Notes under the pieces: generated by a model
Databases searched by the model: none
What the model was told of the DNA's origin: nothing
Seen by the model: only the letters and a program-made list of their open reading frames with translations
Program-made: the position numbers and the translations under genes
DNA from: a virus
Reading direction: 5' to 3' (one strand)
IMG/VR virus record: IMGVR_UViG_3300033146_003395
Coordinates: 1-64,000 of that record
Length of the DNA: 64,000 bases
Part shown: positions 17,398 through 57,105 of the stretch, in pieces
How positions within the stretch are numbered: position 1 is the stretch's first letter
Layout: every line of letters begins with the position of its first letter

Positions 17398-17624
17398 GAA
17401 AAAGATATAAAGCAGGTGATGGTATTGAAAAATATTTGGTTGGTCGTACTTATAAACAAATGAGAATTGTAGATTATAATAAAGATAAAAAATATTTTAT
17501 TTGTCAATATGATAATCTTCCGACTCAACATGTAGAAGCCAAATGGGTATTAAGAAGTATTGAAAGTACTAACCCTGTACAAATGTTAAAACTCAAAGAA
17601 AAATTCCCGGAGTATTTTGTATGA
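17394..17624 (+). CDS. small protein, PEYFV tag
   Basis: Ends EKFPEYFV. ATGA-coupled. Confidence 0.7.
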   Translation: MRKRYKAGDGIEKYLVGRTYKQMRIVDYNKDKKYFICQYDNLPTQHVEAKWVLRSIESTNPVQMLKLKEKFPEYFV

Positions 17625-36791: not shown

Positions 36792-37655
36792 ATGAGAATT
36801 AAAACACATGAAGATTATTTGATAAAATTAAAATATAAAAATATAGAAGTTATACCATTAGAAATGTATACAGCTTCTAAGACTGCGATTTTACATAAAT
36901 GTATATGTGGGAATGAGTGGGATGTAAAGCCAAATATAGTATTGAATAATCATAAATGTGGATGTATTACTGGGCGAAAAAACAATACTAATGAATGGTA
37001 TCTAGAAAAGTTAAAAGAAAAAGATATAAAAGTTATACCATTAGAAATATATGAAGGTAGCAGTAATAAAATTCTTCATAAATGTATATGTGGAAATGAG
37101 TGGAGAACATCACCAGATGTAATTTTTTCTGGAAGTCTTTGTGGATGTGTATTAGGCCCAAAAAATAATACAAACATATGGTATCTAGAAAAGTTAAAAG
37201 AAAAAGATATAAAAGTTATACCATTAGAACCTTATATAGATTCTAAGTCTAAAATTTTACATAAGTGTTACTGTAATAATGAATGGTTAGGTAGACCAAT
37301 GGATGTACTAAAAGGAATGGGTTGTGGATGTAAACGTAACTATTCTTTAAGAGGAGCAGAATTTTATAGAGATAAGAAAACAATCTTATATTATATAAAG
37401 ATTAAAGGATTAAATAACGAAGATTTATATAAAATCGGTGTTACTTTATATAAAGATTCAATAGAGAAAAGTCTAAAGAAAAGATTCTATAGACAAGAAT
37501 ATGAGGTTATAGAGACTGATATATTCGAAGATGGAAGTGAAGCTTTCACACTAGAACAGTCAATATTAAAATTTAATAGAGAATACAGATACCTAGGTGA
37601 AAAAGTTTTATCATCAGGTAATACTGAATTATTTATTAAAGATATAAAGGATTAA
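36792..37655 (+). CDS. endonuclease with three HKCxCxNEW/CGC zinc repeats and C-terminal GIY-YIG-like domain
   Basis: ILYYIKI..LYKIGVT..E..IL..GNTELF. Paralog of 54776 and 46496. TATAAATA 36733-36740. Confidence 0.75.
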   Translation: MRIKTHEDYLIKLKYKNIEVIPLEMYTASKTAILHKCICGNEWDVKPNIVLNNHKCGCITGRKNNTNEWYLEKLKEKDIKVIPLEIYEGSSNKILHKCICGNEWRTSPDVIFSGSLCGCVLGPKNNTNIWYLEKLKEKDIKVIPLEPYIDSKSKILHKCYCNNEWLGRPMDVLKGMGCGCKRNYSLRGAEFYRDKKTILYYIKIKGLNNEDLYKIGVTLYKDSIEKSLKKRFYRQEYEVIETDIFEDGSEAFTLEQSILKFNREYRYLGEKVLSSGNTELFIKDIKD

Positions 37656-38948: not shown

Positions 38949-39508
38949 TGTCTAAAGTTGGAATTTTAGATTCAGGGGATTTTAACCCCTGTACACTGAG
39001 CAAATTAGAGTTACCAAAACGGGAACAAATCTCAGAAGAGGGCGAAAAAAAATTTAGATATGATGATAAAAAACTTTCAGTTGTTATTTACGATTACGAT
39101 GAGATGGAAATTCTTTCTGATTATATCGGGATGGATATTAAAACTTACCTAGAATATTCTTCTTGGAATACGGGGAGAATTAAAAAAGATATTAAAGGTA
39201 ATTATATATATGTTAATAAAGATAATATAGTTAAATATATTAATAAATTAGAACTTAATATATATTTAGAAGATGGTTGGATAAAAGGTAATCTATGTAA
39301 ATCGACAAAAGGCAAAGTAAGGGTTTATAAAAATAATAGGAATACAACAATAGATGAAAATTTATTAGATGAATATATTACAAATGGTTGGAAAAAAGGT
39401 GCATATAAAGTACGATGTGATGATTGTAATAAAGAATTAAGTTCTTTAGGCAAACAAAACCATAAATGTTTAGGAAAAGAGCATAAATATATTTTTAATT
39501 TAAGCTAG
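38948..39508 (+). CDS. protein with endonuclease-type DNA-binding repeats (Y(L/I)xxGWxKG), no nuclease domain seen
   Basis: YLEDGWIKG / YITNGWKKG repeats like those in 58755-59570. C-terminal CDDC..H.C. Confidence 0.5.
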   Translation: MSKVGILDSGDFNPCTLSKLELPKREQISEEGEKKFRYDDKKLSVVIYDYDEMEILSDYIGMDIKTYLEYSSWNTGRIKKDIKGNYIYVNKDNIVKYINKLELNIYLEDGWIKGNLCKSTKGKVRVYKNNRNTTIDENLLDEYITNGWKKGAYKVRCDDCNKELSSLGKQNHKCLGKEHKYIFNLS

Positions 39509-39548
39509 AATTAATGTAAATTATGGTATAATATAGTATATAAAGGAT
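39498..39548 (+). promoter_or_regulatory. early promoter repeat
   Basis: TTTAAGCTAGAATTAATGTAAATTATGGTATAATATAGTATATAAAGGAT. Confidence 0.8.
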
Positions 39549-39554
39549 TAATAA

Positions 39555-40934
39555 ATGATAAAAAAGATACTAGATGAATTTAATAAAACAAATTCGACGA
39601 ATGATAAAAAAATTGTATTAGAAAAACATAAAGATAACTTACAATTAATTGAAGTGTTTCAAAAAGCATTAGATAAAGTTAAATGGACTTATGGGATAAC
39701 TTTAAAAAATATTCCAGAGTATAAATGTTCTAACAAACAGGATTTGCAATGGGCTCTGACTTCTTTAGAACTATTAGCTGATAGAACATATAGTGGACAT
39801 GCTGCCCTTGATTATATACATAATATTTTAAGTTCTATATCTGAAGATAACGCCTACATTATCGAAAGAATTTTGGATAGAGATCTAAAAATTAGATTTG
39901 GTAAAACTGAATTTAATAAGATAGTCGATAAAGGATTACAATGTACTCGTCCTCCATACACTAGATGTGAAATTGGTACTAAAGCAAATATTCTTAAAAA
40001 TATGCCAGTTGATAAAGATGGTAACTTCAAAAATAAAGTATACAGTGAAGTTAAAATGGATGGTACATTCCGTAGAGCAGTTGTTGATGGTACAGATGTT
40101 GAAATTACTTCAAGACCAGGTATTGCTGGTTCATTTCCATTAATCGAAGCACAATTAAAAACTATACCTTTTGAGGGTTATGTTTATATTGGTGAAATGA
40201 CTTTAAGAGGCGAACAAGACCGTTCAAAAGGTAATGGTCTTATTAATTCTGATGATATTCCACATGACGATGTTTTATTTACTGTTTGGGATATGATACC
40301 TATTCAAGAATATGCTATGACTAAAGATGAAATTAAGAAAGCAGAAAAAGCTGGAACATTAAGTCATTATGAAGATAGATTTAATTTATTAGAACATGCT
40401 ATCAAAAATATCCCTGGTGGATTAGCAAATGTTGAACTTATTGAATACAGAATTGTTAAAAACATGACTGAAGCTTATGAGCATTTCCAAGAAGTTACTC
40501 TAAGAGGTGACGAAGGTACAGTTATTAAAGCTCACGATATGACTCACAAAGATGGTAACAGTAAAAAACAATTAAAAGTTAAACTTGTTATTGAATTAGA
40601 TATGAGAATTACCGGATTTAATGCTGGTAATAAAGGTTCTAAAAATGAAGCATATTTCTCAGGAATTAATTTTGAGAATGATGAAGGTACTATCAAAGGT
40701 TCAGTTGGTGTTACATCATTAACAGAAAAAGATAGAGACTACTTTCATGAAAATAGAGAATTTGTTATTGGACAAGTTATGTCAATGGTTTGTAACGATA
40801 TTACACAAGCATCTGGAAATGATTTTAAAGCGTTATCACATCCAAGATATGATAAACTTAGAGGTAAAGAAAAAGAAACTGATACTCTTGAAAGAGCATT
40901 AGAACAAAAACAAATGGCAATGGAGTTAAAATAA
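39555..40934 (+). CDS. ATP-dependent DNA ligase gp30
   Basis: EVKMDG (KxDG), SRPG, IGEM, VWDMI, EGTVIK, KVK, SHPRY..R. Confidence 0.92.
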   Translation: MIKKILDEFNKTNSTNDKKIVLEKHKDNLQLIEVFQKALDKVKWTYGITLKNIPEYKCSNKQDLQWALTSLELLADRTYSGHAALDYIHNILSSISEDNAYIIERILDRDLKIRFGKTEFNKIVDKGLQCTRPPYTRCEIGTKANILKNMPVDKDGNFKNKVYSEVKMDGTFRRAVVDGTDVEITSRPGIAGSFPLIEAQLKTIPFEGYVYIGEMTLRGEQDRSKGNGLINSDDIPHDDVLFTVWDMIPIQEYAMTKDEIKKAEKAGTLSHYEDRFNLLEHAIKNIPGGLANVELIEYRIVKNMTEAYEHFQEVTLRGDEGTVIKAHDMTHKDGNSKKQLKVKLVIELDMRITGFNAGNKGSKNEAYFSGINFENDEGTIKGSVGVTSLTEKDRDYFHENREFVIGQVMSMVCNDITQASGNDFKALSHPRYDKLRGKEKETDTLERALEQKQMAMELK

Positions 40935-41134
40935 TGGCTAAGTGGTTAAAATATAAAAACTTTAATCAATATAATGAAAGAATATCTGAAACAATGTTAC
41001 ATAAAGCAATGAATGATAAACTTTATAAAAATATTGTTAAAGAAAATATTTTAAGAAATGTTAGAGAAGACTACAATAAAGATAGTGAACTTACTGAATA
41101 TATGTTAGATCACTATGCTATGTATTTTATATAA
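40934..41134 (+). CDS. small protein, divergent tag (YAMYFI)
   Basis: TAATG-coupled to ligase. Confidence 0.6.
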   Translation: MAKWLKYKNFNQYNERISETMLHKAMNDKLYKNIVKENILRNVREDYNKDSELTEYMLDHYAMYFI

Positions 41135-41143
41135 GGATAAATA

Positions 41144-41395
41144 ATGGCTAAAGATTTTGACCATCTAGCGAAAGCTAGAGCCCGTGAAGAAAAAGAACAC
41201 AATTATTATACTAGATGGAGTTATGATGATGCCTGGGGTTATTTATCAGCACAAATAAAGGGTAAAACTAAGTGGGAAAGGCAAGCTTCAAAGTTAAAAC
41301 AAGAAATTGATAATACTACTTATCCTAAGAGACTTAAAAAGCTCCAGAAAAAACTCCAGATTATTGTTGATGAATATCCTGAATATTTTGTATAA
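41144..41395 (+). CDS. small protein, PEYFV tag
   Basis: Ends DEYPEYFV. Confidence 0.7.
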   Translation: MAKDFDHLAKARAREEKEHNYYTRWSYDDAWGYLSAQIKGKTKWERQASKLKQEIDNTTYPKRLKKLQKKLQIIVDEYPEYFV

Positions 41396-41405
41396 TTTAA
41401 TCCAA

Positions 41406-41456
41406 ATTTAACCTAGAACTAATATAAGTTATGGTATAATATAGTATATAAAGGAT
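41406..41456 (+). promoter_or_regulatory. early promoter repeat
   Basis: TTTAACCTAGAACTAATATAAGTTATGGTATAATATAGTATATAAAGGAT. Confidence 0.8.
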
Positions 41457-41460
41457 AATA

Positions 41461-41781
41461 ATGATGATACAATATTATGAAACTAAATTAGAGAATTTTG
41501 ATTACGAAATTTCTAATCCCAAAAAAATACAAAAACCTAAAAGTATTAGATGCAGATTTAAAGTTGGTGATACTATTATTAATATTAACAGATTGCAAGT
41601 CGAAAAGAAACCGCAAAATTGGGAAGTCATAAAAATTAATAAGAATTCTATGACTGTTGCAGGATTAGTTGAAAGTCGTTGGTACAAAACACAACGTCAA
41701 ACAGATATTAACCAAGATGGTTATAAATTTTATAAAACATTAGATGAATATAATGAAATGTTTCCAGAATATTTTGTATAG
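41461..41781 (+). CDS. small protein, PEYFV tag
   Basis: Ends EMFPEYFV. Confidence 0.7.
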   Translation: MMIQYYETKLENFDYEISNPKKIQKPKSIRCRFKVGDTIININRLQVEKKPQNWEVIKINKNSMTVAGLVESRWYKTQRQTDINQDGYKFYKTLDEYNEMFPEYFV

Positions 41782-41788
41782 GAAAAAG

Positions 41789-42046
41789 ATGAAAAAGAAA
41801 AGAAATCCAGAATTTTTAGTCTATCGTTTTGGTGATGCACCTGAAGGGTCTATTCAAATCGTTATGAAATATACTGGAATATCAAATAATGAAGATTTTG
41901 ATTATGTCGATACAGTTTATGGTAATTATGGTAATTATAGTAATTATGGTAGCACCTATAGTTTTTGTGAAGATTATGTTTTACAAAAAACTGGTTGCAA
42001 TACTATAGAAGCATTCCATGAAAAATATCCAGAGTATTCAATATGA
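41789..42046 (+). CDS. small protein, PEYSI tag
   Basis: Start moved to ATG 41789 after AGGA. Ends EKYPEYSI. Confidence 0.7.
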   Translation: MKKKRNPEFLVYRFGDAPEGSIQIVMKYTGISNNEDFDYVDTVYGNYGNYSNYGSTYSFCEDYVLQKTGCNTIEAFHEKYPEYSI

Positions 42047-42471
42047 TGGGTTCAAAAGGAGAAACTTTGTTAAAAGTAGAAACAACATCAACAGAAAAAA
42101 ACTTAGCTATATTATTCTTAGAACGTCCACCAGAGGGATATTCATTTAATTCCTTAGATGAAGCTTTTGCATATGCTGAGCAGTATATGAGAGAATCTAA
42201 AGAGACAAAAGAATATTATGTTTGTACAATGTTTCCGTATGATTTACGTGATATTGTAAAAGCGAGAGTTAAAACACCCGCTAAATATTTTACTAGTTAT
42301 AAACAAGCTAGAATTTTTCAACTACAGTTAGCTTTTAAAAATGATATTGAGCAAAAGAAACAAGATGATGAAGGTTATTTTACAGTAGATGGAAAATATA
42401 AATTATTATCTGAAGGTGATATGGGCGAGTATTATGAGTACCATAAAACTGAACCAGAGTATTTCGTATGA
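42043..42471 (+). CDS. protein with PEYFV tag
   Basis: Ends KTEPEYFV. Confidence 0.7.
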   Translation: MMGSKGETLLKVETTSTEKNLAILFLERPPEGYSFNSLDEAFAYAEQYMRESKETKEYYVCTMFPYDLRDIVKARVKTPAKYFTSYKQARIFQLQLAFKNDIEQKKQDDEGYFTVDGKYKLLSEGDMGEYYEYHKTEPEYFV

Positions 42472-42674
42472 AAAAATTATCAGATTTAATAATAGGTGAT
42501 TTAGTTGAATTTAAACTTGAAGCATTTAATCAAAGAGTTTATAAAGTAACAGATTTTAGAGATAACTGGAATATTATTAAATTACTAGATTTAACATACG
42601 GTGGAGAAACTTGGTGGCAAAAAGATAAGCTTAAAGAAATAACACCTGAAGAATGGCCGGAGTATTTCGTATGA
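42468..42674 (+). CDS. small SH3/KOW-like protein, PEYFV tag
   Basis: LIIGDLVEF. Ends EEWPEYFV. Confidence 0.7.
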   Translation: MKKLSDLIIGDLVEFKLEAFNQRVYKVTDFRDNWNIIKLLDLTYGGETWWQKDKLKEITPEEWPEYFV

Positions 42675-42901
42675 AAAAATTAGAAGATTTTCCAATAGGA
42701 ACTGAAATAGTTTATATACCAAATCTGATTAAACATAAAGCAATCCATAAGAGTTGGATTGTACAGAATATTTCAGTAAATAACAATTTAGTTTGTGGAG
42801 TAAAAGATTCAGAAGGTTGGACTGGTATTCAAGAAAAAGATTTAGATAATTATATGGTTATTGATGATGTAAAAATAAATTACCCGGAGTATTTCGTATG
42901 A
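42671..42901 (+). CDS. small protein, PEYFV tag
   Basis: Start moved to coupled ATG 42671. Ends INYPEYFV. Confidence 0.7.
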   Translation: MKKLEDFPIGTEIVYIPNLIKHKAIHKSWIVQNISVNNNLVCGVKDSEGWTGIQEKDLDNYMVIDDVKINYPEYFV

Positions 42902-43137
42902 TAGAACAAGAATTAGAGATGTCATTTGATGCTGATATGCACATGAAAGTATTAAATGATGCTAAAGATGCTTTACTCGAAAATGCTAATATTCATGATG
43001 TTAAAAGCTTAATTCAAATCCGCCAATATTGTAATAATCCTGGAGAATTCCAGATAGTAGACTGTTACGATAAAGTCGCAATTGACTTAGACTTATATAA
43101 TAAATTAAATAAAGATTTCCCGGAGTATTTCGTATGA
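42898..43137 (+). CDS. small protein, PEYFV tag
   Basis: Ends KDFPEYFV. Confidence 0.7.
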   Translation: MIEQELEMSFDADMHMKVLNDAKDALLENANIHDVKSLIQIRQYCNNPGEFQIVDCYDKVAIDLDLYNKLNKDFPEYFV

Positions 43138-43352
43138 AAAATAAAGAATTAAAAGATAATTATGAAGAGCTTACAGAAGAGCTAAGATATTATAAAAACA
43201 GAGTTAATGAGCATAGTCAAATCAGACCGTCTGAACCAGGTAAAAGACTTGACCAATGGAGATTAGGTTGGAATATATTTCATAATAATGTTGCTAGACT
43301 TGAAAAAATAGTGCAAACATTCAAAGATGAACACCCGGAGTTTTTTGTATGA
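43134..43352 (+). CDS. small coiled-coil protein, PEFFV tag
   Basis: Ends DEHPEFFV. Confidence 0.7.
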   Translation: MKNKELKDNYEELTEELRYYKNRVNEHSQIRPSEPGKRLDQWRLGWNIFHNNVARLEKIVQTFKDEHPEFFV

Positions 43353-43603
43353 GACCAGAAATAAATAGTTTCAGTGTCGATGAAAAACAGTTTTGGTATG
43401 TTACAACTAACCTAGATGATAAAAACGTTAATATGTCTAACCTAGATTATCTTTGTAATGATTTTGTGATAAGAGGTTGGAAAGATACTGTTACTAATTA
43501 TGGAGCTGATGAAGCTAACAATATGATTATTCACGAAGATTTATCAGCAATTAATAATTTTTTAGAACAATTTAGAGAAGATTGTCCTGAGTATTTTGTA
43601 TAA
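43349..43603 (+). CDS. small protein, PEYFV tag
   Basis: Ends EDCPEYFV. Confidence 0.7.
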   Translation: MRPEINSFSVDEKQFWYVTTNLDDKNVNMSNLDYLCNDFVIRGWKDTVTNYGADEANNMIIHEDLSAINNFLEQFREDCPEYFV

Positions 43604-43611
43604 GAGATATT

Positions 43612-43905
43612 ATGGGAAATGAAATTTTAGAAATGACATTTGGAGATATAATAAATGACCCCGTAAAAGTGCCTGAGTATGATTATAAGATTTACTTATA
43701 CTATAACGAAACATTAGCGAAACTTAAATCATTAGATTCAATAACAATATTAGTTAGACTTGAAAATGAAGAATCTGCTAATCACTCTGGTGTAGCACTT
43801 GGCATTATTTTAGATACCGAAAAAAGAAAAGCAATAAACCCAAAGTACCTAAAATTTCTTTGTTTAAATTCTGAACGTGATGAGTTCCCGGAGTATTTCG
43901 TATGA
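43612..43905 (+). CDS. small protein, PEYFV tag
   Basis: Ends DEFPEYFV. Confidence 0.7.
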   Translation: MGNEILEMTFGDIINDPVKVPEYDYKIYLYYNETLAKLKSLDSITILVRLENEESANHSGVALGIILDTEKRKAINPKYLKFLCLNSERDEFPEYFV

Positions 43906-44228
43906 TTAAAAATGAACATGGATTTGGTAACACACATCTGAAACTTAATAATAAAAGAGATAAAGTAAAACTGCACCCTCATGAATATTTCAAAAAGAAC
44001 TATGATTTCGATGGAGTAACTTATAATTTCTTTCCAGAGCCTTTTACAAATGCTTTAGAAGGTGTTACTCCAGCAATGACTGGTGAAATATATGAAGTAG
44101 TTGAAGAAGGCTCAAACGGTACTATAATAATAATTAAAACTGAACTTGGAAATATTACAAAACCTGTAGGCAAATGGGCTATTGAAGAATTATATACTTT
44201 AGAAGATAATCCTGAATATTATGTCTAA
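43902..44228 (+). CDS. small protein, PEYYV tag
   Basis: Ends EDNPEYYV. Confidence 0.7.
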   Translation: MIKNEHGFGNTHLKLNNKRDKVKLHPHEYFKKNYDFDGVTYNFFPEPFTNALEGVTPAMTGEIYEVVEEGSNGTIIIIKTELGNITKPVGKWAIEELYTLEDNPEYYV

Positions 44229-44238
44229 TTCTTTTGGA

Positions 44239-44295
44239 ATTTAAGCTCCGTTTAATGTTAAACATGGTATAATATAGTATATAAGAAAAGAAGGA
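44239..44295 (+). promoter_or_regulatory. early promoter repeat
   Basis: TTTAAGCTCCGTTTAATGTTAAACATGGTATAATATAGTATATAAG. Confidence 0.8.
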
Positions 44296-44301
44296 TATTA
44301 A

Positions 44302-44562
44302 ATGACAATTAAAGAAATAACTAAAATTGAGATAACAGAATTAAATATAGCAATCATTGATAATTGTAATAGTAGTGAAGATACTGCTAAAACTATTGAA
44401 GCAGTTGCAGAAGTAATTATTAAAAATTCTAAACTTATGTTAGAAAGAGAAACTCAATTACAAATGAGAATTGAAGCACTTGAAGAAAAACTTCGTAAAA
44501 ATCGAGAAGAAGAAGTTTATACACAAGCTGAAATTGATTCATATAATGGGATGGGTAAATAG
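44302..44562 (+). CDS. hypothetical coiled-coil early protein
   Basis: AAGGA RBS. Confidence 0.65.
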   Translation: MTIKEITKIEITELNIAIIDNCNSSEDTAKTIEAVAEVIIKNSKLMLERETQLQMRIEALEEKLRKNREEEVYTQAEIDSYNGMGK

Positions 44563-44988
44563 ATGGAAAGATTATTTGCGGATAACACACCTACTTTGTT
44601 AGGATTTGAAATTACTTTAGAAATAGCAAGAGAATATGATTGGTCAATGGAGCGTACGATGGCCGAACTAAGACTTACTTTGTATAACAGTTTAGATTTA
44701 GCTTCTGAAGATAAAACAATGGCTTTAGATGAACTTCAAGAGATTAAAGATACTGAAGAAAATGAATCAGTATTAGCAACTATTCACGAATTAAGCAAAA
44801 AAGAAGCTAAAATTTCTTTAGAAATGTCAGATACTTGGTATGAAATTGATACATTAAAAAGAGAATATCCGGAAATATATCAAGCACTTGAAGATGATAT
44901 TCCAGAAGGAATTAGAGGTAATGATTTTTATAAAGAAATGCACGTTCGCTTAAAAAGAGAGTTCAGAGAAATTTGGAAGGAACTATAA
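44563..44988 (+). CDS. hypothetical acidic protein
   Basis: Operonic. Internal KREYPEIY. Confidence 0.65.
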   Translation: MERLFADNTPTLLGFEITLEIAREYDWSMERTMAELRLTLYNSLDLASEDKTMALDELQEIKDTEENESVLATIHELSKKEAKISLEMSDTWYEIDTLKREYPEIYQALEDDIPEGIRGNDFYKEMHVRLKREFREIWKEL

Positions 44989-45335
44989 TGTTAGAATTTA
45001 ATGCTGAACAAAATAAATTTGTAGCAACTCAACTAATGAATAAATACCCAGAGATTTATGAAGAATTAACTGAAGATTTTGATAGACTTCCTGCTGGAGA
45101 TTTGCAAGCGATATTAGCTGTTATTAAAGAAATTAAATTGGGGAAGAAAATCCAGGCTATTAAAGAAGTTATAAGTATCTTAGGGCTAGGCTTAAAAGAA
45201 GCTAAAGACTATGTGGAAGCACTAGAAGGTCCAATGCAAGAAACTTCAGATGGTACAAGAATTCGTACAATTAAACCTGAGATATTAACTCGATTAGCAT
45301 ATTATCAGGAGAAATACCCAGAGTATTTCGTATAG
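44988..45335 (+). CDS. protein with ribosomal bL12 (L7/L12) C-terminal-like domain, PEYFV tag
   Basis: KKIQAIKEVISILGLGLKEAKDYVE. Ends EKYPEYFV. Confidence 0.7.
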   Translation: MLEFNAEQNKFVATQLMNKYPEIYEELTEDFDRLPAGDLQAILAVIKEIKLGKKIQAIKEVISILGLGLKEAKDYVEALEGPMQETSDGTRIRTIKPEILTRLAYYQEKYPEYFV

Positions 45336-45343
45336 GAGATAAT

Positions 45344-45676
45344 ATGAAAAATAAATTAAGTGATTTAGAAGTAGATGATGTATTTCTTGTAAATTACAAA
45401 TATGAAGACCAAGATTTTGATATTATTTGTGCAGTTATGGAAACAGATAATATAGAAGTTGATGGAATGCCAGGTATTAAAATTTCAGATTTGAAAACAT
45501 TCAATGGTGAAGATTTAGATTATGAATATAATATTTCTTTAGAAGGATATGATAGTGGTTTTATGGGAGATAAGAAGCCAGAAATTACAAATCAATTTAC
45601 ATTCAAAGAGTTCTTATTCAGTCACCAAAGTGTTTTAGGGAGATTAGAAGAAGAAAGACCAGAATATTTTGTTTAA
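45344..45676 (+). CDS. acidic protein, PEYFV tag
   Basis: Ends EERPEYFV. Confidence 0.7.
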   Translation: MKNKLSDLEVDDVFLVNYKYEDQDFDIICAVMETDNIEVDGMPGIKISDLKTFNGEDLDYEYNISLEGYDSGFMGDKKPEITNQFTFKEFLFSHQSVLGRLEEERPEYFV

Positions 45677-45684
45677 GGAGAATA

Positions 45685-45879
45685 ATGAAAACAATACTTT
45701 TAAGTATTCCTGAACATGTAAAAAGAGTAAATTCTTTTTACCTAAGAAAAAATCATTATTTAATAAATGATGAAAAAATACCTCACAATTATGAAATAGA
45801 TGATTATGAAATGTATGATTTTCATGTAATTATAAAAGCGGTGTTAGTTACTTTGTATAAAGAAGAAAATATATTATAG
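45685..45879 (+). CDS. hypothetical protein
   Basis: GGAG RBS. Confidence 0.55.
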   Translation: MKTILLSIPEHVKRVNSFYLRKNHYLINDEKIPHNYEIDDYEMYDFHVIIKAVLVTLYKEENIL

Positions 45880-45887
45880 GAGATTTA

Positions 45888-46184
45888 ATGTCACTTTGTA
45901 TGATAGAGCCTGAATAGTTCGGAGAGAAATTTGAAGACGTAGGAAATACAGAAATTATTTCAATGAATTATGATAAGAGTTTTTTCAAAAATTGGAATGG
46001 GCATTATTTAGTTGGTATCGATTATTTGGATAATACTGATTGTACTTATTATGTATTTTCACCTAAGAGAGCAATCTCAAATTCACGATTAACTATTAAA
46101 GTTAAGCATGATACAAAATATGAATTTACACCTGAAATCGCCGAGAGAATAATCCCAGAATTATTCCCAGAGCATTTAATTTAA
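45888..46184 (+). pseudogene. PEHLI-tagged protein interrupted by in-frame TAG at 45915
   Basis: GGAG plus ATG 45888 is in frame with track ORF 45963. Reads MSLCMIEPE*FGEKF... Confidence 0.5.
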
Positions 46185-46199
46185 TCTTAAGGAGATGAA

Positions 46200-46496
46200 A
46201 TGAAAAACGAAATAGTAGAAAACGGAGTTGAAGTAGAAGTATTAGAGACTGATGAAGACTTTAATAACTTTCAAAAACTAGCCGAAGGTATCAATGATGG
46301 ATTAGCACAAGTTGCTATGGAAAACCAAATGACTCAAGACAATAAAGAACAACCTATTTTTTATGGTGAGTATGATGGTGAAACTATCGGTGAAATGATG
46401 GGTGAATTTTATGAAGCAACTCAATTTTTACCTGAAAATAAAGATGGATTTGTTGATGGAACATTCGTAGTTAATGTAACATTTATTAAAAGCTAA
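46200..46496 (+). CDS. acidic hypothetical protein
   Basis: GGAG RBS. Confidence 0.65.
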   Translation: MKNEIVENGVEVEVLETDEDFNNFQKLAEGINDGLAQVAMENQMTQDNKEQPIFYGEYDGETIGEMMGEFYEATQFLPENKDGFVDGTFVVNVTFIKS

Positions 46497-46966
46497 TGAG
46501 ACGGCTACAAACTCTCAAGGGTGTCAAATACCTAAATGATAGAGTGGGCGAAACCTTCTATCATGTAAAATTACAGGGGATTACGAAATATACTTTAAAA
46601 AGTTTCTCTCTGGATTTTGCAATATTTGATGGCGGCAGGTGTAAAAGAAAAGCACCAAGAGGGAATGAATTTTATAGAGATAAGAAAACAATCCTTTATT
46701 ATATAAAGATTAAAGGATTAAATAACGAAGATTTATATAAAATCGGTGTTACTTTATATAAAGGATCTATAGAAAAAAGTCTAAAGAAAAGATTCCATAG
46801 GCAAGAATATGAATTAATTCAATCGGAGATATTTAAAGACGGAAGTGAAGCTTTTGTTTTAGAACAACAAATATTAAAATTTAATAGAGAATATAGATAC
46901 TTGGGTGAGAAAGTACTTAAAGCCGGTAACACTGAATTGTTTATTAAAAATTTAATATTAGATTAA
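46496..46966 (+). CDS. chimeric protein: unrelated N-terminus fused to the GIY-YIG-like nuclease domain of 36792/54776
   Basis: From EFYRDKKTILYYIKIK onward it is near-identical to the paralogs at DNA level. Confidence 0.7.
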   Translation: MRRLQTLKGVKYLNDRVGETFYHVKLQGITKYTLKSFSLDFAIFDGGRCKRKAPRGNEFYRDKKTILYYIKIKGLNNEDLYKIGVTLYKGSIEKSLKKRFHRQEYELIQSEIFKDGSEAFVLEQQILKFNREYRYLGEKVLKAGNTELFIKNLILD

Positions 46967-46999
46967 AGTTATTATAGTATAATAGTACAAGGAGTTAAT

Positions 47000-47161
47000 A
47001 TGCACTGTATAGATAAAATCGCCGATAAAATTAATGATTTAAAAATAGAGCTTGATATTAACCGGAGCGACCTCGGCGGAGATGAAGATAAGTTATATAC
47101 TAAATCTATTCTCTTAGAATTAAAAAAATTAAAAGAGGAATACCCAGAGTATTTCGTATAA
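47000..47161 (+). CDS. 53-aa protein, PEYFV tag (not in track)
   Basis: GGAG RBS. MHCIDKIADK...KEEYPEYFV. Confidence 0.7.
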   Translation: MHCIDKIADKINDLKIELDINRSDLGGDEDKLYTKSILLELKKLKEEYPEYFV

Positions 47162-47170
47162 GGAAAAAGA

Positions 47171-47428
47171 ATGAATGAATGGATTAAATTAATATTTGGT
47201 GGAATGTTAGTATTATTAGGGGCTTTCTTAACTTGGGTTTCTGCAGTTTCAATAAGTTTAGCAGCATACACTTTCGTGATATTATTAATATTGAATATTA
47301 CAGGTTTAATTGCGATTGGTTGGTGGGTCTTATGGGCACCATTATTAATGTTTTTCGGTGGATTTCTTGCAATAGGAATTAATTTATTTTTAACTTTCCT
47401 TGGTGTTGCAATTGCATCGGACGTATAA
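47171..47428 (+). CDS. membrane protein
   Basis: Almost entirely hydrophobic, IGWWVLWAPL. Confidence 0.65.
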   Translation: MNEWIKLIFGGMLVLLGAFLTWVSAVSISLAAYTFVILLILNITGLIAIGWWVLWAPLLMFFGGFLAIGINLFLTFLGVAIASDV

Positions 47429-47622
47429 TGATAGTTAAAATATATGATTACACGGATGCAAGTGGAGAATTAATCTTAGAAGATTACGAATATAATAAGA
47501 ATGATGCAATGTTATTATGTAATGTAGACTTGATTACAGTTGAAGACCAAGATTATGAAGTATTTGAAACAAAAATAAGAGCGTATGCAACAGTGCTCGA
47601 AATAGCAGTAAGGAAACATTAA
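47428..47622 (+). CDS. hypothetical protein
   Basis: Coupled ORF. Confidence 0.55.
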   Translation: MIVKIYDYTDASGELILEDYEYNKNDAMLLCNVDLITVEDQDYEVFETKIRAYATVLEIAVRKH

Positions 47623-47822
47623 TGGAATTAAATATTGTTTATATTGAAGACCACGATGAAGAAGACCAAGAGGCGAAATTTGTTTGTCCTCAATGTCACG
47701 GCATCGTAGAGTATCAAACATTTGAGAGAAAATCAAGTAATCCAATTTATGATTGGAATTGCGGAAGTTGTTTCAGTGCTGTACCAGTAGAAGAATTACA
47801 CCTAAAATTGAAGGAGAAATAG
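47622..47822 (+). CDS. zinc-ribbon protein
   Basis: CPQC..CGSC. Confidence 0.6.
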   Translation: MELNIVYIEDHDEEDQEAKFVCPQCHGIVEYQTFERKSSNPIYDWNCGSCFSAVPVEELHLKLKEK

Positions 47823-48064
47823 TGAAAGAACAATATCAAGAAACGTGGCAAAGAAAATGGGGATTTAGTAAACTAGAATTTCACCCACTATTACTAGCAG
47901 CAGTATTCGGATTTACTGGATTATTTCTTGGTAAAGTATATTTTGATATGGCTTTATTATTTTTATTCTACACTGTAGTGTATTTCATTATAGATGTTGT
48001 ATTAATTGGTGCCAGAATATTCTGGGCAGGTTATAAAGAAATGAAAAAAGATACTGAGATTTAA
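47822..48064 (+). CDS. membrane protein
   Basis: GTG 47822 after GGAG. Two TM segments. Confidence 0.55.
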   Translation: MKEQYQETWQRKWGFSKLEFHPLLLAAVFGFTGLFLGKVYFDMALLFLFYTVVYFIIDVVLIGARIFWAGYKEMKKDTEI

Positions 48065-48114
48065 TCTCGGTCTAATAATATTATAGTATAATAATATAAA
48101 CAGGCAGGAATGAA

Positions 48115-49518
48115 ATGGACGAAATAATCTACCTATGTATGGGATATTTTGAAGCAAAAGGTGCAAATTTTATTACAAACACTGGAAAAGCTGTTCAAGT
48201 AGAATATCAAAATGATAACTCATGGTTTTGGTACAGTGATTACCCATATAAATTGCATCACCATGATAAGTGGAAATCAATTGATGCTTTCTCTGAAATC
48301 ACGAAACTTAAAGAACATAAAAAATTATGGCAAATTAAGTGTGACCAAGATATGACAGATTTACTACAATCTGACGAGCAGGAGTTCTATCAGATTCAGG
48401 TCGATACACAAGACTTAACTGCTCATTCAAAAGATGTAAGTTGTTTCCTAGAAAATTATAATATACTAAAAGTTAAGTCTCCAATGGCTACAAGAAAATC
48501 TAACATTATTGAAGAGACAATTAAACAGTGTAACACACAAAATAAAAGTGTACTGTTTATTACAAATAGGGTTTCACTTTCTCACGATATAGCTGACAAA
48601 TATGCTCAATATGGACTTAAGCATTATCAGAAAAGAGAGTACAATAAAGGTGATAATCTTGTTGTACAATTTGACTCGTTATTTTATTATAATCCAGATG
48701 ATTTTGATGTTGTTATTTTAGATGAGGTCTCATCACTAATTTTATATATGACTGATACTTATCAAGGTAAAGAAGAAAGATTTAACGATAACCTGAATAC
48801 TTTTTCAGCCTTAAAAACTAAGCAGTTCTTAATATTAGATGCTTTCATTATTAACTTTCCTTTTCATGGGAAAACTCTAGGAATTTATAACAAGTTTAGA
48901 GAAGAGCTGCAAGTAATTGAGTACTCAGATAAACCAAATTTTGAGGCTAAGATTGTTCGTGAAACTGGTAAAGGTTTAATCTCAGTGTCAAGCAATGAGA
49001 AAAGATTCTTAACTAATTTAGAAGCTAAACTCAGAAAACGCGGTTATAAAGTTTTAATGTTAACAGGTGACACAAAAGATAAGCCCAGGGTTTATAAAAC
49101 GCTAGAAATGCGAACCATTCCTTATGATGCAATTCTGTATAGTCCAACATTAACAGTTGGTGTAAGTATTTTCGCTGAGATTAAACATCATTTTCACTAT
49201 GATAACTCAGGAACTATATCAGTGATTGACTCTATGCAAATGACCAGAAGAGTTAGGAATGCTAAAGAACTTCACTATTTTATCAGAGGTAGAGCATCAT
49301 ATAAAGCAACAGATATTAACAATATTGAACGTAATTTAAAAGAGTTCAGAATTATGAATGAGTATGGTGTAACTTTCGGGATTACTAATACTGGTAAAAT
49401 GCTAGCCGAATTTAGAAGGACTAAAAATATCCTAGCAAATTCTCACAAGTATGCTTTCCGTTCATTATTGTTATATCAATTTAAAGCAGTAACTTATAAT
49501 AATCAGAGGGTTTATTAA
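48115..49518 (+). CDS. SF2 helicase-like protein (origin-binding protein/UL9-like)
   Basis: VKSPMATRKS (atypical Walker A), LFITNRVSL, VILDEV, YSPTLTVGVS, QMTRRVR. Confidence 0.7.
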   Translation: MDEIIYLCMGYFEAKGANFITNTGKAVQVEYQNDNSWFWYSDYPYKLHHHDKWKSIDAFSEITKLKEHKKLWQIKCDQDMTDLLQSDEQEFYQIQVDTQDLTAHSKDVSCFLENYNILKVKSPMATRKSNIIEETIKQCNTQNKSVLFITNRVSLSHDIADKYAQYGLKHYQKREYNKGDNLVVQFDSLFYYNPDDFDVVILDEVSSLILYMTDTYQGKEERFNDNLNTFSALKTKQFLILDAFIINFPFHGKTLGIYNKFREELQVIEYSDKPNFEAKIVRETGKGLISVSSNEKRFLTNLEAKLRKRGYKVLMLTGDTKDKPRVYKTLEMRTIPYDAILYSPTLTVGVSIFAEIKHHFHYDNSGTISVIDSMQMTRRVRNAKELHYFIRGRASYKATDINNIERNLKEFRIMNEYGVTFGITNTGKMLAEFRRTKNILANSHKYAFRSLLLYQFKAVTYNNQRVY

Positions 49519-49556
49519 TCCTCTGAATCCTCTAATTCTTTTTAAAACTTAAGGTA

Positions 49557-49613
49557 TTTAAGCTCCGTTTAATGTAAAACATGGTATAATATAGTATATA
49601 AAGAAAAGAAGGA
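49557..49613 (+). promoter_or_regulatory. early promoter repeat
   Basis: TTTAAGCTCCGTTTAATGTAAAACATGGTATAATATAGTATATAAAG. Confidence 0.8.
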
Positions 49614-49619
49614 TAAATT

Positions 49620-49955
49620 ATGGAAGCTAAAATATTACATTTTAACGATACAATCCGTAGAGATATAAACGGAGCTGGAAGTAGATTAGAACTTAAATCA
49701 TTAGCCTTTGAGGGTTATTTAAACTTAGGTTATAATACAGTTGCTAGAGTCCTGGTATCTGGTAATACTGATGAGATCTTAAGAAATTCATTTAAACTTA
49801 CAAATTCATTCGATACTTTCTGGGGAGATAATGCAGATGTAACTTGTTATAATCCTAAATGTCGTTCAACTTCAGTTGGTGATTTAATCCAGGTAGGAAA
49901 TGAAATTCATATTGTTGCATCAGCAGGATTTGAATATCTTTGTGAGGTAAAATAA
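49620..49955 (+). CDS. hypothetical early protein (RSTSVGD motif)
   Basis: RSTSVGDLI..V...GF resembles YodL-like phage proteins. Confidence 0.55.
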   Translation: MEAKILHFNDTIRRDINGAGSRLELKSLAFEGYLNLGYNTVARVLVSGNTDEILRNSFKLTNSFDTFWGDNADVTCYNPKCRSTSVGDLIQVGNEIHIVASAGFEYLCEVK

Positions 49956-51275: not shown

Positions 51276-51283
51276 GGATTAAA

Positions 51284-51532: not shown

Positions 51533-51549
51533 ATAACAAAAGGATTAAA

Positions 51550-51992: not shown

Positions 51993-51994
51993 TA

Positions 51995-52674: not shown

Positions 52675-52693
52675 ATAAACTAAAAGGAACACT

Positions 52694-54207: not shown

Positions 54208-54265
54208 ATACTATTATAACTAATTAAGATTAAACTAGTATTAAAATATATTAAATTCTTTTCAA

Positions 54266-54316: not shown

Positions 54317-54321
54317 AAAAC

Positions 54322-54523: not shown

Positions 54524-54531
54524 GAGATAAA

Positions 54532-55877: not shown

Positions 55878-56209
55878 AAATAAATTCAGAAATTAACACA
55901 GGTAAATTATTTGTCTTAAAATCTAAAGAATATTGCACCAATAATAATTATCTTTTTGATGAAGACAATGATTGTTTCCTTAACAAAGAAGAACATCTAT
56001 TTTGGTTTAATAGTACAATAGATGAAATTTGTCAAGTAGGATTTATTGATGTTAATTGTTATGGGAAAATCGTTGAGGTTTTTAACGTAGTTACCGGAGA
56101 CCAAATAAATTTGTGTTACCGTGTAAATAATGCAGCTGATTATTCAATAATTGATGATTGGATGGGAAAATATGTTGACCCAGAAAAAGAACCGGAGTAT
56201 TTTGTATGA
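55874..56209 (+). CDS. small protein, PEYFV tag
   Basis: Ends EKEPEYFV. Confidence 0.7.
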   Translation: MKINSEINTGKLFVLKSKEYCTNNNYLFDEDNDCFLNKEEHLFWFNSTIDEICQVGFIDVNCYGKIVEVFNVVTGDQINLCYRVNNAADYSIIDDWMGKYVDPEKEPEYFV

Positions 56210-56421
56210 CAAATTTTCAAAAGAAAATAATTGGTGCAATTTTTTATAAAAGACCTGCAAAAAGAGGAAACTTATTAGTAAGTTATATGGCTGAGCATGA
56301 GAAATATTATGAATGTCTCTATGCTACAGGTGCGACTTATCTTATAGAAAAAGATGACGTGATATGGGTTGGAGAATCTGAAGAACAATTTAAAGATGAG
56401 CACCCGGAGTATTTTGTATGA
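56206..56421 (+). CDS. small protein, PEYFV tag; tandem paralog of next ORF
   Basis: IG.IFYKR...YEC...G..Y.IEKD.V.WVG.S.EQF. Confidence 0.7.
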   Translation: MTNFQKKIIGAIFYKRPAKRGNLLVSYMAEHEKYYECLYATGATYLIEKDDVIWVGESEEQFKDEHPEYFV

Positions 56422-56630
56422 AAACAGATTTTATGACAATAGGGTATATCTTTTATAAGAGGACAAATGATAGAGGCACAAGGTTATCAAAATATATTAA
56501 TGAATTTGAAAAACATTATGAATGTGCTTTTATAACTGGTGGAAGTTATATGATTGAAAAAGATACTGTTCTATGGGTTGGAAAATCTGTAGAACAATTC
56601 GAAGAAGAAAATGCAGAGTACCTAATATGA
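56418..56630 (+). CDS. small protein, AEYLI tag; tandem paralog of previous ORF
   Basis: Ends ENAEYLI. Confidence 0.7.
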   Translation: MKTDFMTIGYIFYKRTNDRGTRLSKYINEFEKHYECAFITGGSYMIEKDTVLWVGKSVEQFEEENAEYLI

Positions 56631-56863
56631 AATTAACTAGAATGAAAAAAGTTGAAGATATTTACGAAAAAGATTATTGTCTTGTTAACGATGAGTTATT
56701 TTGTGTTACTAGTGTTTATTCAGGATTTAATAACACTATAATTATGGCTTATAATGAAGAATCTCATAAATATCAGCCATCGCTTTCTGAGGTTCAATAT
56801 AACTTTGGACCAGGAACTAGTTTTGAAGATATTAAAAGAGTATTTGCGGAGTATTTTGTATGA
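56627..56863 (+). CDS. small protein, AEYFV tag
   Basis: Start moved to coupled ATG 56627. Confidence 0.7.
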   Translation: MKLTRMKKVEDIYEKDYCLVNDELFCVTSVYSGFNNTIIMAYNEESHKYQPSLSEVQYNFGPGTSFEDIKRVFAEYFV

Positions 56864-57105
56864 AAACAGATAAAGGTCAAAATTTCTATGCCTTAGAGTA
56901 CAATGATACTGAGTGGATGACACAAAACGGTTTGGTATTAGAAATTAAAGATATGGACAAAATGCATGTGTTTAATAGTGTAAGGTTACTGCAAAGACGT
57001 AACAAAATTTTAGAACAAAGTGGGGAAGAACTCTACAAAATTCCTAGGTTATTAATAGCTTCTTACGAAAAATTTGAAGATGAGATGCCGGAGTATTTTG
57101 TATGA
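56860..57105 (+). CDS. small protein, PEYFV tag
   Basis: Ends DEMPEYFV. Confidence 0.7.
   Translation: MKTDKGQNFYALEYNDTEWMTQNGLVLEIKDMDKMHVFNSVRLLQRRNKILEQSGEELYKIPRLLIASYEKFEDEMPEYFV

What the first reader, a model, noticed from the sequence alone, without database searches (positions are those of the whole stretch)
42452..43905. Tag DNA doubles as RBS + start of the next gene: an 18-bp cassette junction
Seen: where the next gene is ATGA-coupled, the junction is mostly CCGGAGTATTT(C/T)GTATGA or a near variant (ends 17624, 42674, 42901, 43137, 43352, 43905, 56209, 56421, 56863, 57105). It uses the otherwise rare CCG-GAG to create GGAG 8 nt before ATG. Where the next gene has its own RBS or none follows, the same peptide is usually encoded CCT/CCA-GAA/GAG (41395, 41781, 44228, 45676). 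Inference: each gene is a plug-in unit flanked by direct 18-bp repeats that supply tag, stop, RBS and start. Recombination between junctions could excise, insert or reorder genes, and any incoming ORF would be both expressed and tagged, like an integron without a visible integrase.
Basis: partly seen in the sequence, partly recalled or inferred. Interest (0 to 1): 0.8.

Follow-up and report, generated by a model that had tools for sequence, protein, structure and literature searches.

The report
Tag codons double as ribosome site
In an uncultured T4-like phage, the last codons of many small genes encode a shared protein tail and, through rare synonymous codons, also the ribosome-binding site and overlapping start of the next gene; the repeats this creates look like a by-product, though one strain difference shows they can act as deletion points.

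Summary
The 18-mer CCGGAGTATTTYGTATGA occurs 8 times exactly and 3 times with one mismatch, all on the + strand. None is expected by chance.

The codon claim holds. Of 17 ATGA-coupled tag ends, 11 use NCG-GAG, against 2 of 21 other tag ends (p=5e-4) and 1 of 79 internal Pro-Glu pairs. Three other phage contigs show the same trend (10/20 vs 4/23).

This is ordinary termination-reinitiation coupling with the Shine-Dalgarno site inside the upstream gene, applied to a conserved C-terminal peptide. Eight of 10 untagged ATGA overlaps also embed such a site.

The integron reading is not supported. I found no integrase on the contig and no hairpin at the junction. The free synonymous sites are no more alike within arrays than between them, so constraint explains the repeat.

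One result favours junction recombination. A contig from another sample lacks exactly the 442 bp between the two junctions that share the longest identity, 25 nt. The closest known mechanism is PeSL shuffling in T4-type phages.

This scan's earlier AI notes report tag codons doubling as ribosome sites in other phages.

The parts
41432..41451 (+). Promoter-like element TGGTATAATATAGTATATAA heading the first tagged operon. It is one of 11 + strand copies in the window.
   Evidence: 11 matches with up to 3 mismatches, 0.14 expected. Each copy lies upstream of a + strand gene block that holds tagged genes.
41461..44228 (+). Operon of ten small genes, all ending in the PEYFV-type tail. Seven of the nine internal junctions are ATGA overlaps.
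42454..42471 (+). Junction variant CCA-GAG (AGAG instead of GGAG), ATGA-coupled.
42657..42674 (+). Exact 18-bp junction CCGGAGTATTTCGTATGA.
   Evidence: The relative's gene model P0050 (76 aa) starts at the overlapped ATG.
42884..42901 (+). Exact 18-bp junction.
43120..43137 (+). Exact 18-bp junction.
43335..43352 (+). Junction with one mismatch (peptide PEFFV).
43888..43905 (+). Exact 18-bp junction.
17607..17624 (+). Exact 18-bp junction (TTT form).
56192..56209 (+). Exact 18-bp junction (TTT form).
56404..56429 (+). Exact junction plus 8 further bases. 56405-56429 is the left copy of the 25-nt direct repeat.
56405..56846 (+). 442-bp segment holding gene 56418-56630 (a paralog of 56206-56421) and gene 56627-56863. 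It is absent from a contig of run X1.
   Evidence: joint 56404->56847, skips 442, no letters between, 25 letters fit both sides, shorter side 255 letters, depth 9.9. Searches show the paralogy.
56846..56871 (+). Junction with one mismatch (GCG, peptide AEYFV). 56847-56871 is the right copy of the 25-nt repeat.
57088..57105 (+). Exact 18-bp junction.
41381..41395 (+). Uncoupled tag end encoded CCT-GAA, followed by an intergenic promoter-like region.
44214..44228 (+). Uncoupled tag end (PEYYV) encoded CCT-GAA...GTC TAA, at the end of the operon.
45662..45684 (+). Uncoupled tag end CCA-GAA...GTT TAA, followed by its own GGAG and an ATG 8 nt after the stop.

Best explanation
The junction is a triple-coded gene boundary that arises by selection. 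It is not a mobile repeat. About 40 small + strand genes of this T4-like phage end in a conserved peptide, roughly [FLI]-[KR]-E-E-[FY]-P-E-Y-F-V-COOH, whose reader is unknown. The peptide is under protein-level selection. These genes sit in tightly packed operons behind a repeated promoter-like element. Where a gene is followed at once by another, the last Val/Ile codon is GTA or ATA and the stop is TGA, so ATGA holds stop and start together. The Pro-Glu codons are then set to the rare CCG-GAG, which puts GGAG 8 nt before the ATG. A terminating ribosome can thus reinitiate, or a new one can bind, on an unstructured site. Under these three constraints only two synonymous positions stay free, so near-identical 18-mers are expected without any copying. 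As a side effect the genome carries many 15-25-nt direct repeats in the same reading register. General homologous or short-homology recombination between two of them removes or duplicates whole genes and leaves both neighbours intact. This has happened at least once among strains. Shown: the repeats, the link between codon choice and coupling, and one junction-bounded indel. Inferred: coupling itself, the recombination mechanism and the role of the tag.
For: Codon choice follows coupling. NCG-GAG occurs in 11/17 ATGA-coupled tag ends against 2/21 others in this contig (p=5e-4). Pooled over four contigs it is 21/37 vs 6/44 (p=5e-5). GAG occurs in 34/37 coupled ends against 20/44 others. Internal Pro-Glu pairs are CCG-GAG in 1/79 here and 4/167 over four contigs.

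The rule is general in this phage. Eight of 10 untagged ATGA overlaps carry AGGA, GGAG or GAGG in the 18 nt before the ATG. GGAG lies within 25 nt upstream of 28/147 called starts, against 3.6% of random 25-mers.

Selection acts on the peptide. The 44 uncoupled ends use CCA 21, CCT 11, CCG 8, CCC 2, GCG 2; GAA 24, GAG 20; and six different last codons. The tag persists at operon ends (41395, 44228, 64339).

In contig G002 (39% GC) the Tyr and Phe third positions vary freely among coupled junctions while GAG is kept in 13/14.

Free synonymous sites are not more alike within arrays than between them (permutation p=0.15, 0.82, 0.10, 0.22).

Nine of 10 junction windows fold no better than shuffles.

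Published background: overlapping ATGA pairs usually have a Shine-Dalgarno motif in the 3' part of the upstream gene and are translationally coupled (PMC6728339, passages read).

Recombination side effect: the X1 contig joins 56404 to 56847, and the 25-nt shared stretch is the longest of 153 junction pairs. A 3347-nt contig length is recorded for variants at 88% identity or more of the three genes 55874, 56206 and 56860, but for no variant at 90% or more of the two genes inside the segment.
Against: Six of 17 coupled ends lack GGAG (they have AGAG, CGAG or TGAG), so a strong site is not obligatory.

GAG is also raised at uncoupled ends (20/44, against a background of 7-35% in the four contigs). 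My account does not explain this. It could mean that some uncoupled ends descend from coupled ones.

Replication in the three other contigs taken alone is borderline (p=0.048).

Gene models are my own crude calls. No expression or ribosome data were available: no RNA holder was listed.

The junction-bounded indel is a single case from one short-read contig at depth about 10. Only 15 of 58 joints were shown to me.
Confidence: 0.7

Rival explanations
1. In-frame recombination module, a PeSL-like reading. The junction is the main site at which these arrays gain, lose and reorder genes by homologous recombination. Its triple coding is kept partly because every junction-to-junction exchange yields intact, tagged, coupled genes.
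For: One clean 442-bp strain difference ends in the two junctions with the longest shared identity. Array content turns over completely between phages that keep the tag: no blastp hit at E<=1e-3 between tagged proteins of the four contigs. One slot between two conserved genes holds 9 tagged genes in G002, 2 in L131 and L134, 0 in L135, and 3 untagged genes in L132. PeSL repeats are reported to do this in T4-type phages, including mini-circles (PMC2839356, abstract and sections 13 and 16 read).
Against: There is only one case. The free synonymous sites show no sign of exchange or homogenisation. Other shown differences end elsewhere: 44558->44985 at plain gene borders in three runs, and loose ends at 54801-54802 at a homing-endonuclease edge. 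A near relative appears collinear for 11 of 16 genes. In L131 vs L134 the gene that looked replaced between junction and tail is a fast-diverged ortholog (46% identity, E=5e-17), not a swapped cassette. Repeats of 18-25 nt are short substrates for homologous recombination (recalled).
Confidence: 0.2
2. Integron-like cassette system. A dedicated site-specific recombinase excises and inserts single-gene units at the 18-bp site.
For: Repeated sites in one orientation flank promoterless ORFs behind a common promoter-like element. One unit-sized indel exists.
Against: There is no match to Phage_integrase (PF00589) or Resolvase (PF00239) on the 81.7-kb record, though the record is only about 44% complete. 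The site has no inverted repeat or hairpin. The site sequence is fully explained by coding constraints. The missing segment holds two genes rather than one, and 25 nt of plain identity flank it.
Confidence: 0.04
3. Descent, not convergence. The arrays grew by serial tandem duplication of tagged genes. Bodies diverged beyond recognition while tail and junction were inherited and kept by purifying selection.
For: One adjacent paralog pair exists: 56206-56421 and 56418-56630 (phmmer 3.6e-20, 56% identity). Bodies diverge very fast: orthologs in L131 and L134 are 46% identical while flanking DNA is 79-84% identical, and the tail ELKEAFPEKFI and upstream junction are intact.
Against: Forty-one tagged + strand models give only that one pair at phmmer E<=0.05. 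Lengths range from 53 to 241 aa. One carrier has a ribosomal L7/L12 C-terminal domain. Synonymous sites carry no array signature. This reading is compatible with the best explanation for how the junction works.
Confidence: 0.25
4. The peptide is a passenger. Selection acts on the RNA signal (Shine-Dalgarno site, spacer, start), and PEYFV is merely its translation.
For: The most frequent form of the tag DNA is the coupled one.
Against: The same peptide is kept at 44 uncoupled ends with synonymous codons that destroy GGAG and ATGA, including operon ends with no downstream gene nearby. Amino-acid substitutions are conservative: Y/F/H/M, F/L/Y, V/I. Strain variants keep the tail while bodies change.
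Confidence: 0.03

Closest known systems
Translational coupling by termination-reinitiation at ATGA overlaps with an intragenic Shine-Dalgarno motif (Huber et al. 2019, PMC6728339; passages read)
   Same: A four-base stop/start overlap, a Shine-Dalgarno motif in the last codons of the upstream gene, and tightly packed co-directed genes.
   Different: Here the motif is carved by synonymous choice out of one conserved peptide tag shared by dissimilar proteins. The same 18-mer therefore recurs 11 times in about 40 kb. Coupling itself is not measured here.
[quoted passage not shown] 2010, PMC2839356, sections 13 and 16 read; Comeau et al. 2014, PMC4122927, abstract read)
   Same: A T4-like phage with dispersed conserved short motifs flanking small ORFans in variable regions. 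A strain-level indel is bounded by two copies. Exchange between copies keeps expression signals intact.
   Different: PeSLs are intergenic, with conservation spread over nearly 100 bp (the paper's figure), and consist of a sigma-70-type promoter plus a terminator stem-loop. This junction is 18-25 nt, coding, has no promoter or hairpin, and lies inside operons. The phage also has a separate repeated promoter-like element that is the nearer PeSL counterpart. Mini-circles were not tested.
Integron gene cassettes (IntI, attI, attC). The features are recalled, not read here.
   Same: Arrays of promoterless ORFs in one orientation, separated by a recurring site and read from an upstream promoter.
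   Different: No integrase was found, the site has no folded imperfect inverted repeat, and the site lies inside coding sequence. See the membership test.
Shared C-terminal tags whose codons serve as the next gene's ribosome site in other uncultured phages
   Same: A short C-terminal peptide on many unrelated small phage proteins, with its codons reused as ribosome-binding site and start of the next gene.
   Different: Those are different peptides in different phage groups. I did not examine those loci. They are notes, not publications.

Membership tests
Termination-reinitiation coupled gene pairs | Stop and start overlap by 4 nt (ATGA) between co-directed genes | tested here: met
   17 tag ends in the contig have ATGA with a downstream ORF of 40 aa or more. 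A relative's gene model starts at the overlapped ATG (P0050).
Termination-reinitiation coupled gene pairs | Shine-Dalgarno motif in the 3' end of the upstream gene at working distance | tested here: met
   GGAG lies 8 nt before the ATG in 11/17. AGAG, CGAG or TGAG is present in the other 6.
Termination-reinitiation coupled gene pairs | Translation of the downstream gene depends on translation of the upstream gene | not testable with these tools
   This needs a reporter or ribosome profiling. No RNA run was listed.
PeSL modular shuffling (T4-type phages) | T4-type phage with repeated motifs flanking ORFans in variable regions | tested here: met
   PHROG hits to T4-type head, portal, prohead protease, topoisomerase II, primase and helicases. 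Carriers are ORFans.
PeSL modular shuffling (T4-type phages) | The motif is a sigma-70-like early promoter plus a stem-loop terminator, with conservation over nearly 100 bp, in intergenic DNA | tested here: not met
   The junction is 18-25 nt of coding sequence. Nine of 10 copies fold no better than shuffles.
PeSL modular shuffling (T4-type phages) | Indels between close relatives are bounded by two copies of the motif | tested here: inconclusive
   One clean case (56404->56847). Other shown differences end elsewhere, and 43 further joints were not shown.
PeSL modular shuffling (T4-type phages) | Circular excision products | not testable with these tools
   Contigs cannot show rare circles. 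The one 'goes back' joint shown (44811->44524) is not at a junction.
Integron | IntI-type tyrosine recombinase next to the array | tested here: not met
   No PF00589 match on the 81.7-kb record and no PF00239 match. The record is about 44% complete.
Integron | attC-type recombination sites: imperfect inverted repeats that fold as single strands | tested here: not met
   There is no hairpin at the junctions (folded as RNA on the + strand only).
Integron | Promoterless cassettes read from one upstream promoter | tested here: inconclusive
   A promoter-like element heads each tagged block. Transcription was not measured.

The most novel reading that the evidence does not exclude
The triple-coded junction is a portable in-frame recombination site. 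Every copy holds tag end, stop, ribosome site and start in the same register, so any junction-to-junction exchange (deletion, tandem duplication or re-insertion of an excised circle) gives intact, tagged, translationally coupled genes. On this reading it is the main route by which these phages renew their arsenals of small early proteins, as a coding-sequence counterpart of PeSLs.
Probability: 0.2. Interest if true: 0.7.

Novelty: new variant of a known kind. Interest (0 to 1): 0.4.

Why it matters
It gives a clean natural example of three overlapping codes in 18 bases, namely peptide tag, ribosome site and stop/start. The synonymous-codon signal is measurable: a codon pair used in about 1% of internal Pro-Glu pairs rises to about 65% where coupling needs it. 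It warns that dispersed, near-identical short repeats in phage gene arrays need not be mobile-element sites, because coding constraint alone can make them. It also offers a testable lead: such constraint-made repeats, all in one register, can serve as safe breakpoints for gene loss and gain in T4-like variable regions. The larger open question is what reads the PEYFV tail. That question is not answered here.

Tried and rejected
Close relatives for array comparison:
- Megablast of 41000-46000 against GenBank phages gave no match.
- The ligase anchor in IMG/VR gave 5 loci, the best at 69% identity.
- The ligase anchor in metagenome contigs gave 9 loci, the best at 69%.
- Variant proteins P0003 and P0017 as queries in IMG/VR found no near relative.
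- A G001 tagged protein found only itself.
- The ligase relatives at 69% (L012, L013, L103) have no strict tag end within the fetched flanks.

Pattern scan of IMG/VR with the degenerate 18-mer: 82 stretches were returned. Of the 87 loci held at the time, 66 had no tagged ORF end of 40 aa or more, 16 had one and 5 had two or more. Those 5 come from three contigs. Most single matches look like chance.

Post-hoc impression that the 42-44 kb array prefers TTC and the 56-57 kb array TTT: a formal permutation over Tyr and Phe third positions was not significant in any of four contigs, so I dropped it.

The sigma-70/terminator consensus scan of 40900-47600 was uninformative: 43 promoter-like sites found against 41.9 expected.

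Function of the carriers: PHROGs and Pfam on ten larger carriers gave almost nothing. There were three weak unknown-function PHROG hits and one ribosomal L7/L12 C-terminal domain.

Literature: 'PEYFV' found 16 papers. From the listing only, all but one concern antimicrobial peptides or microcin J25. A five-term search for shared C-terminal motifs on small early phage proteins found 0 papers. On these two searches alone, I found no description of the tag.

Expression: no RNA holder was listed for 41100-47200.

Read laying was run at 85% likeness on contigs only. Joints with sides under 30 letters (for example 56213->57089, 56423->57077, 43159->56008) were set aside, because they probably match only the repeated junction or low-complexity starts.

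I did not predict structures and did not search for a reader of the tag.

Supplementary files of the PeSL and coupling papers were not opened. They do not bear on my counts.
Full report
WHAT THE DNA IS. The window is the first 64 kb of an 81,735-nt IMG/VR record with 29% G+C, estimated at about 44% complete. PHROG matches show a T4-type gene set: major head protein, portal, prohead protease, both topoisomerase II subunits, primase and helicases, plus a DNA ligase. There is no near match among GenBank phages. Runs holding parts of it are labelled sediment, marine and hydrothermal-vent metagenomes. Only the first four runs were laid.

THE OBSERVATION. CCGGAGTATTTYGTATGA occurs 8 times exactly and 3 times with one mismatch. 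All copies are on the + strand, and the reversed control pattern gives none. With up to two mismatches there are 15 copies, against 0.00 expected. Each copy is the end of an ORF whose last residues are P-E-Y-F-V. The TGA stop overlaps the ATG of the next ORF, and GGAG lies 8 nt before that ATG.

In my crude gene set, 36 of 147 ORFs end in [PAT]E[YFHMWNL][YFSLIMA][VIL]-stop, all on the + strand. A scan centred on ORF ends finds 38 such ends. The conserved tail is about ten residues long: [FLI]-[KR]-E-E-[FY]-P-E-Y-F-V. Tagged genes lie in + strand blocks, each headed by one of 11 copies of TGGTATAATATAGTATATAA (0.14 expected).

CODON CHOICE AGAINST COUPLING. Outside the tags, CCG is 6.1% of Pro codons and GAG is 21% of Glu codons.
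- Of 17 tag ends with ATGA and a downstream ORF of 40 aa or more, 11 use NCG-GAG and all 17 use GAG.
- Of the 21 other tag ends, 2 use NCG-GAG and 12 use GAG (Fisher p=5e-4). One of those two (63793) has an ATGA followed by a short ORF.
- Internal Pro-Glu pairs are CCG-GAG in 1 of 79.

Three other IMG/VR contigs with the same tag were fetched whole. They give 2/3 vs 3/9, 7/14 vs 1/2 and 1/3 vs 0/12. Together that is 10/20 vs 4/23 (p=0.048), and with the window's contig 21/37 vs 6/44 (p=5e-5). Three of the 'uncoupled' GGAG ends in G001 do carry ATGA but failed my ORF-length rule, one of them at the contig end, so the classification is conservative.

In G002 (39% G+C) the Tyr and Phe third positions vary among coupled junctions while GAG is kept in 13 of 14. 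That pattern points to selection on the ribosome site rather than copying of a DNA unit.

IT IS THE PHAGE'S GENERAL RULE. Of 10 ATGA overlaps at untagged gene ends in this contig, 8 carry AGGA, GGAG or GAGG in the 18 nt before the ATG (my reading of the listed sequences). GGAG lies within 25 nt upstream of 28 of 147 called starts, against 3.6% of random 25-mers. Spacers of 5-6 nt occur at free-standing sites and 8 nt at the tag junctions. Where a tagged gene is not overlapped, the stop is usually TAA or TAG, often followed at once by GGAG/GAG and an ATG 7-9 nt after the stop. Ten 71-nt junction windows folded as RNA gave z-scores of +0.19 to +1.40 in nine cases and -1.93 in one. The site is therefore open and has no conserved hairpin. 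This matches the published picture that overlapping ATGA pairs usually have a Shine-Dalgarno motif in the 3' part of the upstream gene and are translationally coupled (PMC6728339, passages read).

THE PEPTIDE IS SELECTED AS A PEPTIDE. The 44 uncoupled ends of the four contigs use five codons at the Pro/Ala position, both Glu codons (24 GAA, 20 GAG) and six last codons. The tag stands at operon ends with nothing coupled (41395, 44228, 64339). Strain variants from the protein collection keep the tail while bodies change. With the last nine residues removed, tagged proteins show no blastp similarity at E<=1e-3 between the four contigs. Among 41 tagged + strand models here, phmmer at E<=0.05 finds one pair only, the neighbours 56206-56421 and 56418-56630 (3.6e-20, 56% identity). 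One carrier (42898-43137) matched only its own cluster among 5.8 billion proteins.

ARE THE REPEATS COPIES? With peptide, GGAG and ATGA all fixed, only the Tyr and Phe third positions stay free. With TAT at 84% and TTT at 75%, two junctions would be identical about 45% of the time by my arithmetic. These two positions are not more alike within arrays than between arrays in any of four contigs (permutation p=0.15, 0.82, 0.10, 0.22). Constraint is enough to explain the identity, and I see no trace of homogenisation. There is no match to tyrosine or serine recombinase models on the record, with the caveat that the record is incomplete.

DO BREAKPOINTS FALL IN JUNCTIONS? I laid contigs of four runs on 39500-58000 at 85% likeness or more. 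One 1109-nt contig of run X1 (depth 9.9) covers 55838-56404 and continues without any extra letter at 56847-57157, then 57254-57375. The skipped 442 bp equal the distance between two junction copies, and 25 letters fit on both sides. Those 25 nt (56405-56429 = 56847-56871) are the longest identity among all 153 pairs of 18 coupled junction ends. The next longest are 23, 22 and 21 nt.

The skipped segment holds two genes: 56418-56630, an old paralog of the gene before it, and 56627-56863. After the deletion the upstream gene keeps its tail and stop, and the downstream gene keeps its start.

The protein collection gives indirect support. Variants of genes 55874 (P0003), 56206 (P0006) and 56860 (P0028, 88% identity) are each recorded on a 3347-nt contig. 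The variants at 90% or more of 56418 sit on 579-nt and 673-nt contigs, and 56627 has no variant. I could not see that contig's DNA. The inner gene exists in other strains and its paralogy is old, so a deletion in the X1 lineage is the simpler reading (inference). A 25-nt repeat should not collapse an assembly built from 31-letter words; that word length for these contigs is recalled, not checked.

EVIDENCE ON THE OTHER SIDE.
- A joint seen in three runs (44558->44985, 426 bp, 'between: not known') removes or replaces one untagged gene at plain gene borders.
- Loose ends at 54801-54802 in three runs mark a homing-endonuclease edge.
- Several loose ends lie inside genes.
- Only 15 of 58 joints and 24 of 710 loose ends were shown, so no rate can be given.
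- Eleven of the 16 genes between 40934 and 45676 have variants at 90% identity or more recorded on a 4943-nt contig. The window span is 4743 nt, so that relative is probably collinear (order inferred).

AT GREATER DISTANCE. Arrays are not fixed among more distant relatives. In relatives of G002, the slot between an 887-aa conserved gene and a 501-aa gene varies (anchor 71-80% identical):
- 9 tagged genes in G002
- 2 tagged genes in L131 and in L134
- no genes in L135
- 3 untagged genes in L132

Between L131 and L134, nucleotide similarity stops exactly at the first junction and resumes 42 nt before the next gene's stop. The gene in between is still homologous (46% identity, E=5e-17), with tail and junction intact. 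So bodies diverge very fast under a conserved tail. Dissimilar neighbours may therefore be old duplicates, and the lack of similarity is no proof of foreign origin.

COMPARISON WITH KNOWN SYSTEMS. The junction works like any termination-reinitiation overlap with an intragenic Shine-Dalgarno site. For recombination, the closest described system is the PeSL. These are repeated promoter/stem-loop cassettes, with conservation over nearly 100 bp, that flank ORFans in T4-type variable regions, bound the indels between phi1 and RB49, and form mini-circles (PMC2839356, abstract and sections 13 and 16; PMC4122927, abstract). The present junction shares the logic of a safe breakpoint that carries expression signals. 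It is coding, four times shorter, and has neither promoter nor hairpin. It fails two integron-defining features that I could test.

Earlier AI notes of this scan report tag codons doubling as ribosome sites in other phages (e1-3422449, e1-5835845), and the same idea on this genome (e1-6112467). I tested only the last.

VERDICT. The dual-coding inference is supported. The integron-like inference is not supported, except that junction copies can be deletion endpoints, seen once. The mechanism of the junction is ordinary. Its interest lies in how cleanly three codes are stacked and in the lead on junction-bounded indels. The unknown reader of the PEYFV tail remains the more interesting question, and it lies outside this finding.

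Noticed in passing
window 6536, 6813, 16641, 29891, 35371, 39524, 41432, 44265, 49582, 54292, 62577 (+ strand): Eleven copies of TGGTATAATATAGTATATAA (extended -10 type) each head a + strand gene block. The surrounding 50-80 nt also match contig G001 at 80-98% identity, and read depth peaks there. These are the likelier PeSL counterparts in this phage. Joint 39548->54253 links two of them.
   Followed up: partly
window 44988-45335: A 115-aa tagged protein matches the ribosomal protein L7/L12 C-terminal domain (PF00542, E=1.9e-8, above the cut-off). Relatives of that segment occur in 18 other IMG/VR contigs.
   Followed up: no
window 11692-12480: A 262-aa protein with PHROG exonuclease matches ends in ...EDDIPF. 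This resembles the C-terminal tail of bacterial SSB (recalled).
   Followed up: no
window 3095-3514, 36792-37655, 46496-46966, 54731-55666: Four paralogous genes (phmmer down to 6e-143), which earlier notes call homing endonucleases, sit inside or beside the tagged arrays. Three runs have loose ends at 54801-54802, suggesting presence/absence among strains.
   Followed up: no
window 44563-44988: An untagged 141-aa gene is skipped or replaced in contigs of three runs (joint 44558->44985, with a 'goes back 288' piece). A variant at 90% or more exists on a 992-nt contig.
   Followed up: no
L104 (Ga0055584_100026500), L108 (Ga0164315_10023585), G001-G003, L131-L137: PE[YF]F[VI]-type tails occur in several divergent T4-like contigs (26-39% G+C) but not near the ligase of the relatives at 69% ligase identity (L012, L013, L103). 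The tag marks a patchy subgroup.
   Followed up: partly
window, uncoupled tag ends (e.g. 17806, 43603, 45335, 47161, 57365, 64339): GAG is used for the tag's Glu at 12 of 21 uncoupled ends, against 21% genome-wide. This is unexplained. It may mean former coupled junctions, or some other constraint on that codon.
   Followed up: no
literature: The only papers holding 'PEYFV' quote it within an antimicrobial peptide sequence, microcin J25 by their titles (listing only). This is probably coincidence.
   Followed up: no
window 50919-51275 vs protein P0027: A strain variant of this 118-aa carrier has a different last dozen residues (...NKDKIENAEYYV instead of ...GDQLEFPEYYI) but keeps EYY[VI]. The neighbouring gene 51284-51532 ends in ...NQLEFPEYYV, and a joint 51217->51518 was listed. 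This hints at exchange between neighbouring tails.
   Followed up: no
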